Shown piece by piece: positions 3,713 to 37,575 of a stretch of 46,660 nt of DNA. How positions within the stretch are numbered: the stretch's first letter is position 1; each line of letters begins with the position of its first letter. Made by a program: the position numbers and the translations under genes. The stretch lies in sequence record NC_049829.1. One strand, written 5' to 3'. Source of the stretch: Escherichia phage aalborv. A model generated the notes under the pieces. It made no database searches, was not told the DNA's origin, and saw nothing but the letters and a program-made list of their open reading frames with translations.

Positions 3713-3740
3713 TTGAGTAATGCCATTTGGCGTGTATAAT
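3713..3740 (+). promoter_or_regulatory. sigma70-like promoter (TTGAGT-16-TATAAT) for HTH-primase operon, divergent and overlapping the helicase promoter
   Basis: -35 at 3713..3718, -10 at 3735..3740; the -10 lies in a palindromic TGTATAATACA shared with the leftward promoter. Confidence 0.45.
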
Positions 3741-3780
3741 ACACAATCATTAAATCATCGTTTAACAAAAAATGCTATTG
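3730..3780 (-). promoter_or_regulatory. motif-type promoter (variant AATAGCATTTTTTGTTAAA) for helicase operon
   Basis: Motif 3761..3780; -10 TATTAT about 3735..3741. Confidence 0.5.
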
Positions 3781-3791
3781 GAGAATGAATA

Positions 3792-4265
3792 ATGAAAGAA
3801 CAGCGAATCGCAGTATCAACTGGCAAGATTGACAAGCGCACAATTAATGGCAATAACGGAACCAGACGAGGCAAGGATAAGAAGAAACGCAAACGCCCTA
3901 CAGGATATTATGTACTAAAAGATGAAGTGCGCGCTGGGCTAAAAGCACGCCTTGACATCCTTATTGAGTATTACGGAAGTGTATCAGCAATGGCAAAACG
4001 TCTTAACGTTAGCCAGCAAACTGTAAATCAGTGGCGTGTTCGCGGTATGATTTCAGCCGCTGGCGCTCAAAAGGTGCATAACGATTACAAAAAGTATGGC
4101 TGTCAAGGCTATCGCGCTTCATTCTGCCGTCCAGATCTGCGATTTGATTCCAATGGAAAACCGCTCACAAAGAGATGTGATAAGCGTGAAATGTTGCGAG
4201 TGGTAAGAATGTCAGATTATGAACCTGGCGGATTCCTGTATAAACCTGAAAGCACTAATTGCTAA
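3792..4265 (+). CDS. helix-turn-helix DNA-binding protein (Cro/YdaS-like HTH), basic N-terminus
   Basis: 157 aa; HTH-like segment SVSAMAKRLNVSQQTVNQWRVRG; GGAGAA SD; followed by intrinsic terminator 4273..4310. Confidence 0.55.
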   Translation: MKEQRIAVSTGKIDKRTINGNNGTRRGKDKKKRKRPTGYYVLKDEVRAGLKARLDILIEYYGSVSAMAKRLNVSQQTVNQWRVRGMISAAGAQKVHNDYKKYGCQGYRASFCRPDLRFDSNGKPLTKRCDKREMLRVVRMSDYEPGGFLYKPESTNC

Positions 4266-14843: not shown

Positions 14844-15558
14844 ATTTCAGATCCTTATGTCTACAAACCATTTTTACATGTTCCTGATACCATCCAGAAT
14901 ACAAATCAACCCTCGACAACTTACCAAAGGCATGATGAAGCAACTGATTGTTGCCAAGATAAATGCCTGCATGATTCCAAACTGGCGCGGAAAGCTGAAA
15001 GATAACCATATCACCAGGTTTTGGCGGCTCTCCTGTTTCAACAAAACCCTCTTTCAGATAATTTTCTTGATAAAGATTTTCACCGTGCTCAGGCTTCCAC
15101 CATTCATATGGTTTCCTGAAATCATTCAGGATAACCCCATGTTGCTTGTGCCATGCCATAATAAGACCCCAGCAATCATAAGAACCAAGCGACCACGGGC
15201 GACCAATCAGGGGACGAGATTCAGGCTCTATGATTCTCATGTCACCTTCTGGCCATGACAAAATAACCCATGAAACACCCATTTCATCACACATGCATGT
15301 ATCATGGGCGCTTGGAATTGTACTTGCCCCGTCTCCTGTGTGGCTATGCACAACAGCAATAAGCTCACCACTTTCACAAGCCTCAACGTATTCAATTGCG
15401 TCCATCTCAAAATGATTTTCAGGATCATTATGCACGTTGTTTATGCGGTGGTATTTTTGCGCGCGTGATTTTTGAGTGATAACACCGCACGCCTCTCGCG
15501 GGTATTCATCTTTTACGTGCTGCATTATTTCAAGTTTTATTTTTGCACTAATCATCAC
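14824..15558 (-). CDS. tail assembly protein (lambda K-like; MPN/JAMM plus NlpC/P60-like)
   Basis: JAMM-like motif HSHTGDGASTIPSAHD; Cys/His-containing C-terminal peptidase-like region; synteny. Confidence 0.75.
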   Translation of the reverse strand: MMISAKIKLEIMQHVKDEYPREACGVITQKSRAQKYHRINNVHNDPENHFEMDAIEYVEACESGELIAVVHSHTGDGASTIPSAHDTCMCDEMGVSWVILSWPEGDMRIIEPESRPLIGRPWSLGSYDCWGLIMAWHKQHGVILNDFRKPYEWWKPEHGENLYQENYLKEGFVETGEPPKPGDMVIFQLSAPVWNHAGIYLGNNQLLHHAFGKLSRVDLYSGWYQEHVKMVCRHKDLKYDFEGD

Positions 15559-20083: not shown

Positions 20084-20134
20084 GATAGCACTTTTTGTTA
20101 AAAGAATTGATTATGAATCGTGTAGCATGATTGT
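20084..20134 (+). promoter_or_regulatory. motif copy (GATAGCACTTTTTGTTAAAA) in antisense orientation within late operon, TAGCAT 22 bp downstream
   Basis: Motif 20084..20103 on plus strand between minus-strand major tail and G genes; -10-like 20123..20128. Confidence 0.4.
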
Positions 20135-20142
20135 ACAGTAAC

Positions 20143-20170
20143 AAAAAAAGGGGCGCAACGCCCCTTGTTA
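20143..20170 (-). terminator. intrinsic terminator after major tail gene
   Basis: Stem AGGGGCG..CGCCCCT followed by 7 T on minus strand. Confidence 0.65.
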
Positions 20171-22824: not shown

Positions 22825-23799
22825 TTAACTTGATTTTTTCAAGCCAGTAATAAGCACTAGCGTAAACGGACGGTAAATCGTCAGGCCAGTACATTTTGAA
22901 GTACACGGAACTTTGAAATGCAGATCTTTTGGTTGTGCCGGAAGCATGTTAAATGCTTCTGGAATTTCGATCGACATGTTCATCGGGTCTTTCTCATATA
23001 CCAGGCAACCTTTCGTTCCAGTGCCATCAATATCCTCAAGCTCTGCGATTGAGTCGATGTTGATTCCGCTGTTTTGTTTCTGGAAGTATTCCAGATAACT
23101 TTCAGAGGTGTTTTCCATTCGAACGGAAAGAACCTTGCGCATAGACGGCGGAATCAAGATATTGGTTGCACGGTGCTGACCATTGGTGATGGTCTGAATG
23201 GTTTCAATAGCCTTTTCCAGTTCAGCATATGCTGCCTGCGGGAACTTAGTGTCTTCATTAGCACTTAACCAGCCAGCTGACACGATCTTTGCCAGGTTAG
23301 GGTGTTCAAACACCGAAAGAATCTTATGCGGCTTTGAACCCTTAAACACCAGGCGGTTAACTTCCTGATCATGAGCGTTTTGCGCTGCGTTTGCCTTGCG
23401 AGTGGAAAGGCTCTTACCAGTGCGCTGACCAGCCTTGATTTCGTCAATGGAGATCAAGAACGCGTTACCCAGGCGGAATACTTTACCGAATTCGCTAGAC
23501 ATCATCGCGTCAACGGTCGGCAGGTCGTCGGTGTAATCAGCGATAATTTTTGCGTAACCGACTTTGTCAAACATCTGATATTCAAAAGTCTTATCAGTAT
23601 CAGAAAGCTCATTAGTTACAGGGAATACACGAAGCGCTGAACCTGCCGGATATTCTTTCTCGTAAGCATTAGAGCGAATCTTATGCAGTTCTTGAGCGGC
23701 CCAAATGCCCATATCGGACGTATCACCTTTAACGCCGCGAGTAGCCAGATAGCTAGAAACAATGTCCGCATCTAGCTGATCAAATTTTTCTTTTTCCAT
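22825..23799 (-). CDS. major capsid protein (by size and synteny)
   Basis: 324 aa; GGAGG SD; followed by strong intrinsic terminator, typical of highly expressed capsid gene. Confidence 0.65.
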   Translation of the reverse strand: MEKEKFDQLDADIVSSYLATRGVKGDTSDMGIWAAQELHKIRSNAYEKEYPAGSALRVFPVTNELSDTDKTFEYQMFDKVGYAKIIADYTDDLPTVDAMMSSEFGKVFRLGNAFLISIDEIKAGQRTGKSLSTRKANAAQNAHDQEVNRLVFKGSKPHKILSVFEHPNLAKIVSAGWLSANEDTKFPQAAYAELEKAIETIQTITNGQHRATNILIPPSMRKVLSVRMENTSESYLEYFQKQNSGINIDSIAELEDIDGTGTKGCLVYEKDPMNMSIEIPEAFNMLPAQPKDLHFKVPCTSKCTGLTIYRPFTLVLITGLKKSS

Positions 23800-23844
23800 T
23801 TTCTTCCTCCATATATAAAGGTCGTTAGTATGTAACGGACCAAT

Positions 23845-23863
23845 GATAGCATTTTTTGTTAAA
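23845..23863 (+). promoter_or_regulatory. motif copy (GATAGCATTTTTTGTTAAA) in antisense orientation upstream of capsid gene
   Basis: On plus strand between minus-strand genes; no -10 at the usual spacing. Confidence 0.35.
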
Positions 23864-23882
23864 CGTGCAACATAATTTTGTG

Positions 23883-24317
23883 TTATGGGTCAATGCTTAC
23901 CCCGACAATATATGAATCATTATCAACCTTTACATGTTCGCCAGTAAAGATCCAACCAATCAGCAAGTCGCCTTCACTGTATGCCACATCTCCATCTTGC
24001 GTTACAAATACTTTATCTCCATATTCTGGCGCTTCGCTCTCAGAAGTTAAGCACCAAACATTACCTCGACTAACCACATTAACTGGATCGCCCTCCTCAT
24101 ATATGTACGAGTCCGGCGGCCTTACTGCCACGCCAATAACGAGATCCCCATTAACACTTGCTATTTTGTATCCATTTGTTATATGTGATAGTCGCACAAT
24201 CTTACCTGGCGCAATAAATTCATCTCCGCACACGAAAGATCCGTTAATCACCATTATTGAAGAATCAACCATGCACCCTGGCGACTCAGCGCCAACAATG
24301 ACTGAATAATCACTCAT
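23883..24317 (-). CDS. capsid-associated protein, decoration-like candidate (paralog 2)
   Basis: 144 aa; C-terminal half similar to 24363..24875 (G.VW.L.....AP..G..........G). Confidence 0.4.
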   Translation of the reverse strand: MSDYSVIVGAESPGCMVDSSIMVINGSFVCGDEFIAPGKIVRLSHITNGYKIASVNGDLVIGVAVRPPDSYIYEEGDPVNVVSRGNVWCLTSESEAPEYGDKVFVTQDGDVAYSEGDLLIGWIFTGEHVKVDNDSYIVGVSIDP

Positions 24318-24362: not shown

Positions 24363-24875
24363 TTAACCTGCTGAAGCTGCCGGAATTTTTTGCACCTGAA
24401 CCTCTACCAGCTTCAAGTCTTGAAACTTGGTGAAATCACCAGTCGCGATCCAGTTTGTTTCGATAGTGCCAGACGAGGTATCGACCTGACCATCATCAGA
24501 CAGTTTGATTGCAGTGCCGAAAGCTGGCGCGGAAGCGTCTTTAGCCAACATCCAAACACGCCCTTCAGTCATTACGTTGATTCCGCCGCCAGATTCATAA
24601 ATCATTCGACCGTCAGACGAAGTTGTCTGAAAGTGAGATCGAATTGCAACGCCGTAAGCCTTGCCGCTTGCCGCCATCGGCTTAATTAGCTTATTGCCCA
24701 TAGCGTCAACGCCGCCATGCTGGACCGCAACACCAACAAAAACAGACTGATTCTGATTGTCTGCTGCATTCTCAAGAACACAAGCGCCATCAATATTATA
24801 AGCTGAAGTGTCAGAAACCTGACCAGGTAACGCACGAGACATTACAGCAAAGTAGCTTGCTCCAATTGTAGCCAT
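24363..24875 (-). CDS. capsid-associated protein, decoration-like candidate (paralog 1)
   Basis: 170 aa; between scaffold-like and capsid genes; paralogous to 23883..24317. Confidence 0.4.
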   Translation of the reverse strand: MATIGASYFAVMSRALPGQVSDTSAYNIDGACVLENAADNQNQSVFVGVAVQHGGVDAMGNKLIKPMAASGKAYGVAIRSHFQTTSSDGRMIYESGGGINVMTEGRVWMLAKDASAPAFGTAIKLSDDGQVDTSSGTIETNWIATGDFTKFQDLKLVEVQVQKIPAASAG

Positions 24876-28088: not shown

Positions 28089-28122
28089 TGATTATATATT
28101 GGTTTGTCGATTCGTGCTATTT
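28085..28122 (-). promoter_or_regulatory. truncated motif element (AAATAGCACGAAT) plus TATAAT at terminase-portal junction
   Basis: Large terminase stop TAG lies in AAATAGCAC; TATAAT at 28091..28096; terminator follows. Confidence 0.35.
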
Positions 28123-37495: not shown

Positions 37496-37546
37496 AATAG
37501 CACTTTTTGTTAAAACTGAATCCGCCTGATCGGGTACATTACACAC
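37496..37546 (+). promoter_or_regulatory. motif-type promoter module, first of the rightward early array
   Basis: Motif 37496..37515; -10 TACATT 37535..37540; leader CATCGAAAAGAA. Confidence 0.55.
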
Positions 37547-37575
37547 ATCGAAAAGAACCGATCAGGAGATAGCAA

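What the first reader, a model, noticed from the sequence alone, without database searches (positions are those of the whole stretch)
23845..23877. Second antisense motif copy just upstream of the major capsid gene
GATAGCATTTTTTGTTAAA (23845..23863) is on the plus strand, 45 nt upstream of the minus-strand capsid start, but lacks a -10 hexamer at the usual 22-bp spacing (CATAAT lies only 10 bp away). It may be a decayed promoter or a protein-binding site used for late regulation. Together with the copy at 20084 it shows the element is not restricted to early genes.
Basis: seen in the sequence. Interest (0 to 1): 0.45.

Follow-up and report, generated by a model that had tools for sequence, protein, structure and literature searches.

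The report
Capsid-gene promoter built on inverted repeat
The "antisense motif" upstream of the capsid gene of this T1-like phage is best read on the other strand, where it forms the core of a conserved host-type promoter for the capsid gene, probably doubling as a regulator-binding site; this is useful but fairly ordinary phage promoter anatomy.

Summary
The sequence is real and non-random: 14 copies with 3 or fewer mismatches in the window against 0.07 expected. The window is a T1-like coliphage (Drexlerviridae, Hanrivervirus).

The motif is the family-wide 21-nt repeat aaATAGCACnnnTTGnTAAAA, already listed for phage TLS with no known function. In five genomes, 77 of 90 copies have a TAnnnT -10 hexamer 19-21 bp downstream, so most copies belong to promoters that lack a -35 element.

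The copy at 23845-23863 is an exception in every genome: it has no antisense -10. Read on the capsid (minus) strand, it supplies the spacer and extended -10 of a sigma-70 promoter:
- -35: TTGCAC, 23870-23865
- spacer: 16 nt
- extended -10: TGC-TATCAT, 23851-23843

Downstream come a hairpin supported by covariation, a ribosome-binding site and the capsid ATG. TTGnnn-N16/17-TAnnnT is present in 85 of 86 relatives. It persists where the motif is eroded (some Webervirus) or absent (Braunvirinae). So the element is not a decayed promoter.

The strong conservation of the spacer suggests that the factor binding the repeat also binds here. My candidate is the phage's Cro-like 157-aa regulator, which I infer represses the capsid promoter; this is not shown.

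The copy at 20084 is different. It keeps a conserved antisense -10 and looks like a genuine antisense promoter.

The parts
23845..23863 (+). Inverted copy of the Drexlerviridae repeat (GATAGCATTTTTTGTTAAA). On the minus strand it reads TTTAACAAAAAATGCTATC and occupies about -27 to -9 of the capsid promoter.
   Evidence: the syntenic copy is present in T1, orkinos, Alina and the IMG/VR relatives; listed as DR7 in TLS Table S1
23865..23870 (-). -35 element TTGCAC of the predicted capsid promoter (P_MCP); 16-nt spacer to the -10.
   Evidence: TTG is invariant in alignment A1. TTGnnn is found in 38 of 38 unique sequences and in 85 of 86 relatives.
23843..23851 (-). Extended -10: TGC (23851-23849) followed by TATCAT (23848-23843).
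   Evidence: TG, TA and the -7 T are at maximum information content. Only the MCP-upstream copies (4 of 72 motif copies in four genomes) combine TTG with TAnnnT in this reading.
23871..23882 (-). A/T-rich tract directly upstream of the -35 (ACACAAAATTAT on the minus strand).
   Evidence: The AAAA run is nearly invariant in relatives (consensus ta.ca.AAAAa.c..TTG). A function as an UP element is inferred.
23834..23838 (-). Predicted transcription start, about 23836 (a G, 7 nt after the -10).
   Evidence: Inference from the standard distance between a sigma-70 -10 and the start site. Not mapped.
23820..23841 (-). Hairpin GGTC(C)GTTA...TAACGACC followed by UUUAUAUAU, immediately before the ribosome-binding site. 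It is terminator-like in relatives (TLS 'T35').
   Evidence: 5 of 8 pairs show compensatory changes in 21 relatives. All 28 unique variants fold. The window's own version is weak: -6.6 kcal/mol, z -0.39. TLS Table S1 calls it a terminator; ARNold did not call it in G29-2.
22825..23799 (-). Major capsid protein gene. Ribosome-binding site GGAGG at 23810-23806. Strong terminator after the gene at 22812-22789.
20084..20128 (+). Second inverted copy (motif 20084-20102) with a forward-type -10 TAGCAT (20123-20128) exactly 20 nt downstream. Predicted antisense start about 20135, running into the bidirectional terminator at 20148-20166.
   Evidence: The antisense -10 is TAnnnT in every relative that has this copy: TATCAT, TATCTT, TATATT, TAGATT, TACAGT, TAAGAT.
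3713..3779 (.). Regulator/helicase control region. P_reg is TTGAGT (3713-3718)-16-TATAAT (3735-3740) on the + strand. The helicase -10 TATTAT is at 3741-3736 on the - strand. The motif at 3779-3761 (-) lies at -51..-33 of the helicase promoter and at about +15..+33 of P_reg.
   Evidence: The TLS equivalents are P57 and DR11.
3792..4265 (+). 157-aa Cro-like helix-turn-helix regulator. Candidate protein for binding the motif.
   Evidence: Weak Pfam YdaS/P22_Cro matches at residues 55-89. PDB Cro matches at residues 54-90. phrog_2856 'transcriptional regulator', E=3e-78. 58-78% identical across subfamilies. The link to the motif is an inference.

Best explanation
The 19-mer at 23845-23863 is not an antisense or decayed promoter. 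On the minus (capsid) strand its reverse complement is the spacer and extended -10 of a conserved sigma-70-type promoter for the major capsid gene.

The layout, 5' to 3' on the minus strand, is:
- an A/T-rich tract
- -35 TTGCAC (23870-23865)
- a 16-nt spacer
- TGC-TATCAT (23851-23843)
- a predicted start near 23836
- a hairpin, a ribosome-binding site and ATG 23799

Host RNA polymerase would start here to add capsid mRNA on top of read-through from the upstream head genes. The start lies at or inside the 5' arm of the hairpin. Promoter-initiated transcripts would therefore largely escape a structure that can attenuate upstream transcripts.

This promoter is overlaid by the family's repeat, ATAGCAC-NNN-TTGNTAAA. 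The repeat contains a quasi-dyad, TAGCA-N5-TG(T/C)TA, with half-sites one helical turn apart. At about 85% of its copies it is centred near -42 of promoters that lack a -35 element and have a -10 exactly 20 bp downstream. That is the geometry of a class II activator.

I infer that one DNA-binding protein recognises all copies. The most likely candidate is the conserved phage-encoded Cro-like 157-aa regulator. It would activate from -42. At the capsid promoter it would sit over -27..-9 and compete with sigma-70, delaying or damping capsid transcription.

What is shown: the sequence anatomy, its conservation and its specificity. What is inferred: the start site, protein binding, the identity of the protein and the sign of regulation.
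For: (1) Alignment of the MCP-upstream region from 14 Drexlerviridae genera. The invariant columns are the -35 TTG, the TG/TA of the extended -10 and the -7 T, all read on the capsid strand.

(2) Of 86 relatives, 85 have TTGnnn-N16/17-TAnnnT there, in 52 unique sequences. Information content peaks at the A-tract, TTG, TG, TAT and the -7 T.

(3) Specificity. Of 72 motif copies in four complete genomes, only the four MCP-upstream copies have both TTG and TAnnnT in the reverse reading.

(4) The promoter outlives the motif. A 1-nt insertion lineage breaks the motif (ATAAGCAC) but keeps TTGCAC-17-TATCAT. Many Webervirus keep TTGACG-16-TGA-TATTCT with an eroded motif. The Braunvirinae phage JeanPiccard has a terminator followed by a plain TTGCGT-17-TATAAT with no motif.

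(5) The antisense -10 is absent in all MCP copies (TATGGG, TATACA, TAAGGA or none). In contrast, 77 of 90 copies have one at 19-21 nt, against 11% by chance.

(6) The hairpin after the -10 has compensatory changes at 5 of 8 pairs.

(7) Operator overlay. The spacer is about 90% or more conserved across genera. It varies at the same positions as the forward copies: Spearman 0.80, p=0.002, over the 12 positions outside TG/TAT.

(8) The regulator gene has the same motif between its own sigma-70 promoter and its ribosome-binding site. The same copy lies at -51..-33 of the divergent helicase promoter, and the two -10 hexamers overlap.

(9) The regulator is a family-core protein, 58-78% identical across subfamilies, with a Cro-type helix-turn-helix.
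Against: - No transcript ends, binding data or expression data exist for any T1-like phage in the searched literature.
- In the window the -35 matches the consensus at only 3 of 6 positions, and the simple consensus scan did not list the promoter.
- The window's own hairpin is weak and no better than shuffled sequence.
- If the regulator is made early and autoregulated, it is unclear how repression of the capsid promoter would be lifted late in infection.
- The overlay is dispensable in some lineages: it is eroded in part of Webervirus and absent in Braunvirinae.
- The motif is almost invariant across phages of different hosts. That would also fit a conserved host factor. It matches the Lrp consensus YAGHAWATTWTDCTR at 11-13 of 15 positions (plus my own count).
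- The entropy correlation rests on 18 related sequences, which are not independent.
Confidence: 0.6

Rival explanations
1. Plain promoter with no trans-acting factor at this copy. The reverse complement of the repeat happens to contain TGCTAT, an extended -10 start. An inverted promoter cassette was co-opted as the capsid promoter. The rest of the motif persists through descent or homogenisation with the other copies, not because anything binds it here.
For: - The promoter elements persist where the motif is broken or eroded (the 1-nt insertion lineage and many Webervirus), and Braunvirinae uses a motif-free promoter at the same place.
- The most conserved columns are the promoter elements.
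Against: - A sigma-70 spacer has no known reason to stay about 90% or more identical across genera whose capsid proteins are only 55-80% identical.
- It varies only at the positions that are free in the forward copies.
- 19-bp repeats are too short for efficient gene conversion (established knowledge; not tested here).
Confidence: 0.2
2. One reading: a decayed or weak plus-strand (antisense) promoter of the early class that fires away from the capsid gene.
For: - The motif matches the forward-class consensus perfectly.
- The sister copy at 20084 does look like a working antisense promoter.
Against: - No TAnnnT lies at 19-21 nt in the window, and none in the syntenic copy of T1, orkinos or Alina.
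- CATAAT at 7 nt is Hanrivervirus-specific.
- The site is conserved rather than decaying. What is conserved around it are sense-strand promoter elements.
Confidence: 0.05
3. The repeat, including this copy, is bound by a conserved host protein, for example an Lrp-like global regulator, or is contacted directly by RNA polymerase alpha or sigma subunits as an UP-like or displaced -35 element. The phage regulator is not involved.
For: - The motif is virtually identical in phages of Escherichia, Klebsiella, Salmonella, Citrobacter and Cronobacter.
- TAGCA-N5-TG(C/T)TA fits the half-sites of the published Lrp consensus YAGHAWATTWTDCTR at 11-13 of 15 positions (plus my own count).
- The TLS authors suggested UP-like or enhancer elements.
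Against: - The regulator is just as conserved as the motif (58-78%) and sits next to a motif copy in an autoregulatory layout.
- The motif lies at -51..-33, not at the -59..-38 UP-element position. TTGNTA is 22 bp from the -10, too far to act as a -35.
- In this copy the motif lies inside the spacer, where neither an UP element nor a -35 can act.
- The Lrp match depends on degenerate positions.
Confidence: 0.12
4. A stoperator-like or roadblock site. A bound protein blocks elongating polymerase coming from the upstream head genes, with no local promoter.
For: - The TLS authors raised the stoperator analogy.
- The site lies between two co-transcribed late genes, as does the copy at 20084.
Against: - These phages are virulent, and no repressor or lysogeny module is seen.
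- The fixed 20-bp spacing of the -10 at 77 of 90 copies shows that the repeat is a promoter element.
- The conserved TTG and -7 T flanking this copy are unexplained by a roadblock.
Confidence: 0.05

Closest known systems
21-nt direct repeats of phage TLS and T1-like phages (aaATAGCACnnnTTGnTAAAA; German, Misra and Kropinski-type reannotation, PMC11447400)
   Same: The same sequence family. The TLS homologue of this very copy is listed as DR7 (negative strand, 15044..15024), next to 'terminator T35' and just upstream of the TLS capsid gene.
   Different: - The paper describes the repeats as lying in the direction of transcription, about 76 nt upstream of start codons, with unknown function (stoperator, enhancer or UP-like). 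It does not discuss the inverted copy.
- It calls no promoter upstream of the capsid gene and does not mention a fixed-distance -10.
- Here the copy is inverted, 45 nt from the ATG, has no forward -10, and sits inside a sense-strand promoter.
Extended -10 (TGnTATAAT) sigma-70 promoters with weak -35 elements (established E. coli promoter class)
   Same: TGC-TATCAT with a 16-nt spacer and a 3-of-6 -35 element TTGCAC. The TG, the TA and the -7 T are conserved.
   Different: The spacer sequence is itself conserved and equals the reverse complement of a repeated regulatory element. That is not a property of ordinary extended -10 promoters. The start site is unmapped.
Dual activator/repressor phage regulators acting by site position: lambda CI at OR (activates PRM from about -42, represses PR) and phi29 p4 (activates A3, represses A2b/A2c)
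   Same: One recognition sequence is used at about -42 of promoters that lack a good -35, and inside the core of another promoter. At the regulator/helicase region the -10 elements of two divergent promoters overlap.
   Different: - No binding or regulation has been demonstrated.
- The phage is virulent.
- The operator is a single asymmetric quasi-dyad rather than tandem cooperative sites.
- The candidate protein shares only a Cro-type helix-turn-helix.
Lambda CII-dependent promoters (PRE, PI and the antisense PaQ inside the late regulator gene) and T4 MotA-dependent middle promoters
   Same: A sigma-70 -10 plus an activator site replacing the -35. An activator-type promoter points antisense into late genes, as the 20084 copy does.
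   Different: - Different site sequence and geometry: CII uses TTGC-N6-TTGC around -35, and the MotA box is at -30. Here the site spans -51..-33.
- The copy at 23845 itself has no antisense -10.
Mycobacteriophage L5 stoperators
   Same: An asymmetric repeat in short intergenic gaps, mostly co-oriented with transcription. One copy overlaps a promoter.
   Different: The L5 sites are bound by a lysogenic repressor and carry no promoter. Here 77 of 90 copies carry a -10 at fixed spacing, and the phage is virulent.

Membership tests
Drexlerviridae promoter-associated repeat (TLS 'DR') | Match to the consensus ATAGCAC-NNN-TTGNTAAA | tested here: met
   23846-23863 matches ATAGCAYNNNTTGNTAAA with 0 mismatches. 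It carries the same ATAGCAT...TTGTTAAAC core as TLS DR7.
Drexlerviridae promoter-associated repeat (TLS 'DR') | Oriented in the direction of transcription of the flanking genes | tested here: not met
   The copy is on the + strand between two minus-strand genes. The same inversion is seen in T1, orkinos, Alina and TLS.
Drexlerviridae promoter-associated repeat (TLS 'DR') | TAnnnT -10 hexamer 19-21 nt downstream (the forward-promoter architecture found here) | tested here: not met
   The hexamer at 20 nt is TATGGG. All four MCP-upstream copies fall among the 13 of 90 copies that lack a -10.
Sigma-70 extended -10 promoter (capsid strand) | -10 hexamer with A at position 2 and T at position 6, preceded by TGn | tested here: met
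   TGC-TATCAT at 23851-23843. Conserved in 85 of 86 relatives.
Sigma-70 extended -10 promoter (capsid strand) | -35-like TTGnnn 16-18 nt upstream | tested here: met
   TTGCAC with a 16-nt spacer. TTG is invariant. It matches the consensus at only 3 of 6 positions, so the promoter was missed by the consensus scan.
Sigma-70 extended -10 promoter (capsid strand) | A primary transcript 5' end about 7 nt downstream of the -10 | not testable with these tools
   No transcript-mapping data for Drexlerviridae were found.
Intrinsic terminator / 5' stem-loop (TLS 'T35') | Conserved G+C-containing hairpin followed by a U-run | tested here: inconclusive
   The hairpin is supported by covariation (5 of 8 pairs), and U-runs are present in most relatives. 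In the window it is weak (-6.6 kcal/mol, z -0.39) with the tail UUUAUAUAU. ARNold did not call it in the close relative G29-2.
Operator of a dimeric helix-turn-helix regulator | Dyad-symmetric half-sites one helical turn apart | tested here: inconclusive
   TAGCA-N5-TG(T/C)TA: perfect in the TGCTA variants, one mismatch in this copy. The rest of the motif is asymmetric.
Operator of a dimeric helix-turn-helix regulator | Demonstrated protein binding | not testable with these tools
   Only circumstantial evidence exists: the autoregulatory layout at the regulator gene and the conservation of the regulator.
UP element | A/T-rich element at about -59 to -38, upstream of the -35 | tested here: not met
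   In forward copies the motif spans -51..-33. In this copy it spans -27..-9 of the sense promoter. A separate A-tract upstream of the -35 is the UP-like candidate.
Sigma-54 promoter | GG at -24 and GC at -12 in TGGCAC-N5-TTGCW | tested here: not met
   The motif is TAGCAC-N3-TTG(T/C)T. The GG is not kept and the spacing is 2 nt short (read directly).
Lrp binding site | Match to YAGHAWATTWTDCTR | tested here: inconclusive
   The consensus was verified in the literature. T-class copies match at 12 of 15 positions (13 of 15 with TGCTA) and G-class copies at 11 of 15, by my own count. Many positions are degenerate. Binding was not tested.
Known RNA family (Rfam) | Match at the family's gathering score | tested here: not met
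   No Rfam family matched anywhere in the window.

The most novel reading that the evidence does not exclude
One 19-bp operator, read by a single conserved Cro-like phage protein, wires the whole T1-like transcription programme. At about 15 promoters it lies at -42 and replaces the -35 element, giving activation. Downstream of the regulator's own promoter it gives autorepression. Inverted inside the spacer of the capsid promoter it holds back the most abundant late protein. Inverted after the major-tail terminator it drives a convergent antisense promoter that sharpens the expression step-down to the tail chaperone and tape-measure genes. This would be the first mechanistic account of early-to-late control in a classic phage family that has no polymerase or sigma factor of its own.
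Probability: 0.3. Interest if true: 0.65.

Novelty: new member of a known kind. Interest (0 to 1): 0.4.

Why it matters
T1-like phages (Drexlerviridae) are among the commonest coliphages and Klebsiella phages. They cause fermentation failures and are used in therapy collections. How they time gene expression is unknown: they encode no RNA polymerase or sigma factor, and the 2024 TLS re-annotation found only three recognisable sigma-70 promoters plus an unexplained repeat.

This analysis contributes three things:
- It shows that the repeat is a promoter element with a -10 at fixed spacing.
- It shows that the odd inverted copy upstream of the capsid gene is part of a conserved sense promoter.
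- It gives concrete, cheap tests of a one-regulator model: a reporter fusion, a gel-shift assay and 5'-end mapping.

Practically, it gives annotators a rule for finding promoters in this family. It also gives engineers a defined capsid promoter and a candidate operator. The element itself, a promoter with a probable operator, is a familiar kind of thing.

Tried and rejected
- **Antisense promoter at 23845.** Rejected. No TAnnnT lies at 19-21 nt in this genome or in the syntenic copy of any other genome examined. CATAAT is not conserved.
- **TTGTTA as a true -35.** Rejected. It lies 22 bp from the -10 in the forward copies.
- **Sigma-54-like promoter.** Rejected on spacing and loss of the GG.
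- **UP element.** Rejected on position.
- **Co-variation of repeat class between the capsid copy and the rest of a genome.** I asked whether the middle triplet (TTT or GAA) of the capsid copy tracks the genome's other copies. There was no signal, because Alina and JeanPiccard mix both classes.
- **Phylogenetic profiling of the regulator against the motif.** Uninformative. Both are family-wide, including in Braunvirinae, and no outgroup carries the regulator.
- **Rfam.** No match anywhere in the window.
- **Literature search for the sequence, for T1-like promoters and for Drexlerviridae transcriptomes.** Only the TLS paper was relevant. The T1 genome paper is not held.
- **RNA-level role for the motif** (an RNase site followed by a hairpin). 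Considered, but the two orientations give different RNAs, so it was not pursued.
- **Not run:** structure prediction of the regulator (it cannot show DNA specificity), and a scan of bacterial genomes for the 19-mer (chance hits are expected, so the yield would be low).

Full report
**Observation.** The 19-mer GATAGCATTTTTTGTTAAA is at 23845-23863 on the + strand. It lies in the 83-nt gap between two minus-strand genes: 23883-24317, a cement or minor capsid protein (Pfam PF23982/PF22758), and 22825-23799, the major capsid protein. It is 45 nt from the capsid ATG.

The motif is strongly over-represented. There are 14 copies with 3 or fewer mismatches against 0.07 expected. The looser pattern ATAGCAYNNNTTGNTAAA gives 19 copies against 1.4 expected.

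The hexamer 20 nt downstream is TATGGG, so it has no -7 T. CATAAT is at 23871-23876, which is 7 nt after the 19-mer rather than 10.

**What the window is, and what is already known.** The window is a T1-like siphophage: Drexlerviridae, Tempevirinae, Hanrivervirus, 97% identical to Escherichia phage haarsle.

The motif is the 21-nt direct repeat aaATAGCACnnnTTGnTAAAA described in the 2024 re-annotation of phage TLS. That paper reports 21 copies, "in the direction of transcription", about 76 nt upstream of start codons. It groups them into classes by the middle triplet. It leaves the function open: stoperator-like, enhancer-binding or UP-like. It says the repeat is also present in T1, Rtp and Rogue1. 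It found only three ordinary sigma-70 promoters in TLS.

Its Table S1 lists the homologue of this very copy as DR7, on the negative strand next to "terminator T35", without comment.

**The normal architecture of the repeat.** I collected 90 copies with 1 or fewer mismatches from five genomes: the window, T1, orkinos, the Webervirus Alina and the Braunvirinae phage JeanPiccard.
- 77 have a (T/C)AnnnT hexamer 19-21 nt after the motif, 65 of them at exactly 20 nt. Random positions give 11%.
- The hexamers are near-consensus: TATAGT, TATTAT, CATAAT, TATAAT.
- 40% are preceded by TGn.
- A conserved leader, CATCGAAACGAA, and a ribosome-binding site follow.

The motif therefore spans about -51 to -33, centred near -42. 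TTGNTA lies 22 bp from the -10, too far to serve as a -35. The repeat thus marks a large class of promoters that lack a -35 element, with the geometry of a class II activator site. This goes beyond what the TLS paper states.

**Why the copy at 23845 is different.** In each of the four complete genomes that carry it, the MCP-upstream copy is inverted relative to the late genes. It is also among the few copies without a forward -10: TATGGG, TATACA, TAAGGA or none.

Read on the capsid strand, the region is:
- stop codon of the upstream gene
- A-tract
- TTGCAC
- g-TTTAACAAAAAATGC
- TATCAT
- hairpin
- U-rich tail
- GGAGG
- ATG

This is a sigma-70 promoter with a 16-nt spacer and an extended -10 (TGC-TATCAT).

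Three lines of evidence support this reading.
- In an alignment of 14 genera, the invariant columns are the -35 TTG, the TG/TA and the -7 T.
- In 86 relatives drawn from IMG/VR and GenBank, 85 have TTGnnn-N16/17-TAnnnT at this place. Their capsid proteins are 53-96% identical to the window's. Information content peaks at an upstream AAAA run, TTG, TG, TAT and the -7 T.
- Of 72 motif copies in four genomes, only the four MCP-upstream copies have both TTG and TAnnnT in the reverse reading.

The promoter also survives where the motif does not.
- A Klebsiella K50-like lineage has a 1-nt insertion that breaks the motif (ATAAGCAC) but gives TTGCAC-17-TATCAT.
- Many Webervirus keep TTGACG-16-TGA-TATTCT with an eroded motif, ATATCACGAATCGTTAAG.
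- JeanPiccard has a terminator followed by a plain TTGCGT-17-TATAAT with no motif.

So the primary conserved function here is a dedicated capsid-gene promoter. "Decayed antisense promoter" is refuted.

**The hairpin.** Immediately after the -10, all 28 unique variants fold into a 7-10-bp hairpin. Five of eight consensus pairs show compensatory double changes. Most variants are followed by a U-run, and TLS annotates the structure as terminator T35.

In the window the hairpin is weak: -6.6 kcal/mol, no better than shuffled sequence, with the tail UUUAUAUAU. ARNold did not call it in the close relative G29-2.

The predicted start, about 23836, falls at or inside the 5' arm. I infer that transcripts from upstream can be attenuated here, while promoter-initiated transcripts lack part of the stem and escape. 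Webervirus and Braunvirinae use the conventional order instead, with the terminator before the promoter.

**Why the repeat sits in the spacer.** Sigma-70 spacers are not normally conserved. This one is about 90% or more identical across genera. It varies at the same positions that are free in the forward copies: the Y, the middle triplet and the N of TTGNTA. The Spearman correlation of per-position entropy is 0.80 (p=0.002) over the 12 positions outside TG/TAT, although the sequences are not independent.

The motif contains a quasi-dyad, TAGCA-N5-TG(T/C)TA. It is perfect in the TGCTA variants, and the half-site centres are 10 bp apart. That fits a helix-turn-helix dimer.

The family-core 157-aa regulator (3792-4265) is the natural candidate.
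- It has a Cro-type helix-turn-helix at residues 54-90.
- It is 58-78% identical across subfamilies.
- It is confined to this family.

Its own near-consensus promoter is TTGAGT-16-TATAAT at 3713-3740, equivalent to TLS P57. That promoter is followed at about +15..+33 by a motif copy. The same copy lies at -51..-33 of the divergent helicase promoter, and the two -10 hexamers overlap at 3735-3741. This is a classic autorepression plus activation layout.

At the capsid promoter the same protein would cover -27..-9, including the TG and the start of the -10. It would therefore compete with sigma-70, which means repression. None of this binding has been shown.

Two weaknesses remain. It is unclear how repression would be relieved late in infection. 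A conserved host protein is also possible: the half-sites fit the published Lrp consensus at 11-13 of 15 positions.

**The other late-region copy.** The motif at 20084-20102 (+) lies between the major tail gene's bidirectional terminator (20148-20166) and the tail assembly chaperone gene (PF08748). It abuts that gene's ribosome-binding site.

It has no sense-strand -35 or -10. It does keep a forward-type -10 at exactly 20 nt. That hexamer is TAGCAT in the window and TATCAT, TATCTT, TATATT, TAGATT, TACAGT or TAAGAT in relatives. A conserved GATTnTACAG follows.

It therefore looks like a genuine antisense promoter, with a start near 20135 that runs straight into the terminator hairpin (-16 kcal/mol, z -3.7). 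It would give either a very short antisense RNA or convergent interference that reinforces the step-down in expression after the major tail gene.

JeanPiccard has a sense-oriented motif promoter at the equivalent place. The two inverted copies are thus different things.

**Comparison with known systems.**
- The element belongs by sequence to the TLS/T1 repeat family. It fails that family's usual orientation and lacks the forward -10.
- On the other strand it meets the sequence criteria of an extended -10 sigma-70 promoter.
- Functionally, the inferred arrangement resembles position-dependent dual regulators such as lambda CI at OR and phi29 p4.
- The forward class resembles activator-dependent promoters that lack a -35 (lambda CII, T4 MotA).
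- The 20084 copy recalls lambda's CII-dependent antisense promoter PaQ.
- It is not a stoperator, an UP element or a sigma-54 promoter (see the membership tests).
- No Rfam family matches.

**Verdict.** The best-supported reading is a conserved capsid-gene promoter whose spacer and extended -10 are formed by an inverted copy of the family's regulatory repeat, which probably also serves as an operator.

My confidence is about 0.8 for the promoter. It is about 0.45 that a trans-acting factor binds here. It is about 0.3 that the factor is the Cro-like regulator acting as a repressor.

Novelty is modest. The repeat and this copy are already tabulated for TLS. A promoter upstream of a capsid gene is ordinary, and the T1 genome paper, which I could not read, may already predict it. 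What is new is the anatomy, the family-wide evidence and a testable one-regulator model.

Noticed in passing
window, all 17 co-directional motif copies (e.g. 217, 1237, 35636, 36099, 37496, 38370, 40786, 41462); L002, L003, L091, L092: The family repeat is followed at exactly 20 nt (range 19-21) by a near-consensus -10 in 77 of 90 copies, and 40% have TGn. No -35 lies at a usable distance. This defines the main promoter class of T1-like phages, which the TLS paper left as 'function unknown'.
   Followed up: yes
window 20084-20166: The second inverted copy keeps a conserved antisense -10 (TAGCAT, 20123-20128) and a conserved GATTGTACAG start region. It points into the bidirectional terminator after the major tail gene. 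The predicted product is a tiny antisense RNA, or the effect is convergent interference. The Braunvirinae phage JeanPiccard has the same cassette in the sense orientation (L092 9221).
   Followed up: partly
window 3713-3791: The regulator and helicase promoters are divergent, and their -10 hexamers overlap (3735-3740 on +, 3741-3736 on -). A motif copy serves one promoter at -42 and sits downstream of the other's start. This is a switch-like layout.
   Followed up: partly
window, downstream of forward -10s (e.g. 36060-36040 minus, 37545-37565 plus); L091 likewise: A conserved leader begins (C)CATCGAAACGAA right after the -10, often preceded by a C-rich discriminator (CCCC in Klebsiella phages). 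In several copies a CCUC...GAGG pairing could mask the ribosome-binding site.
   Followed up: no
window spacers between motif and -10 (e.g. 36098-36079 minus: GCCAGG..CCTGGC; 216-197 minus): Many forward promoters carry a short G+C inverted repeat in the 20-nt spacer; 43 of 77 fold at -3 kcal/mol or lower. The sequences differ between copies, but the repeat always abuts the -10. Its role is unknown: it may be a 3' structure for the upstream cistron or a DNA-level feature.
   Followed up: partly
window 28103-28120 (minus) and L003 3367: A degenerate sense-oriented motif copy overlaps the 3' end of the large terminase gene. It has no -10 at 20 nt. Instead TATAAT lies about 8 nt away, followed by a terminator-like hairpin before the portal gene.
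   Followed up: no
window 23883-24317 and 24363-24875 (minus): Two adjacent paralogous genes both hit the Phage_cement and XM1_gp53 minor-capsid families. They are separated by a terminator-like hairpin at 24355-24339.
   Followed up: no
GenBank MG065638, MG065671, MG065675, MG065680 ('Campylobacter phage' A15a, A120, A118, A113): Records labelled as Campylobacter jejuni phages are 92-100% identical to this coliphage group. This suggests mislabelled hosts or contaminating T1-like phages.
   Followed up: no
L023 (IMGVR_UViG_2974632794_000001), MCP upstream: The only relative lacking the 16/17-nt spacer has one A fewer in the A-run, and odd sequence around the capsid start. This is probably a homopolymer sequencing error.
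   Followed up: no
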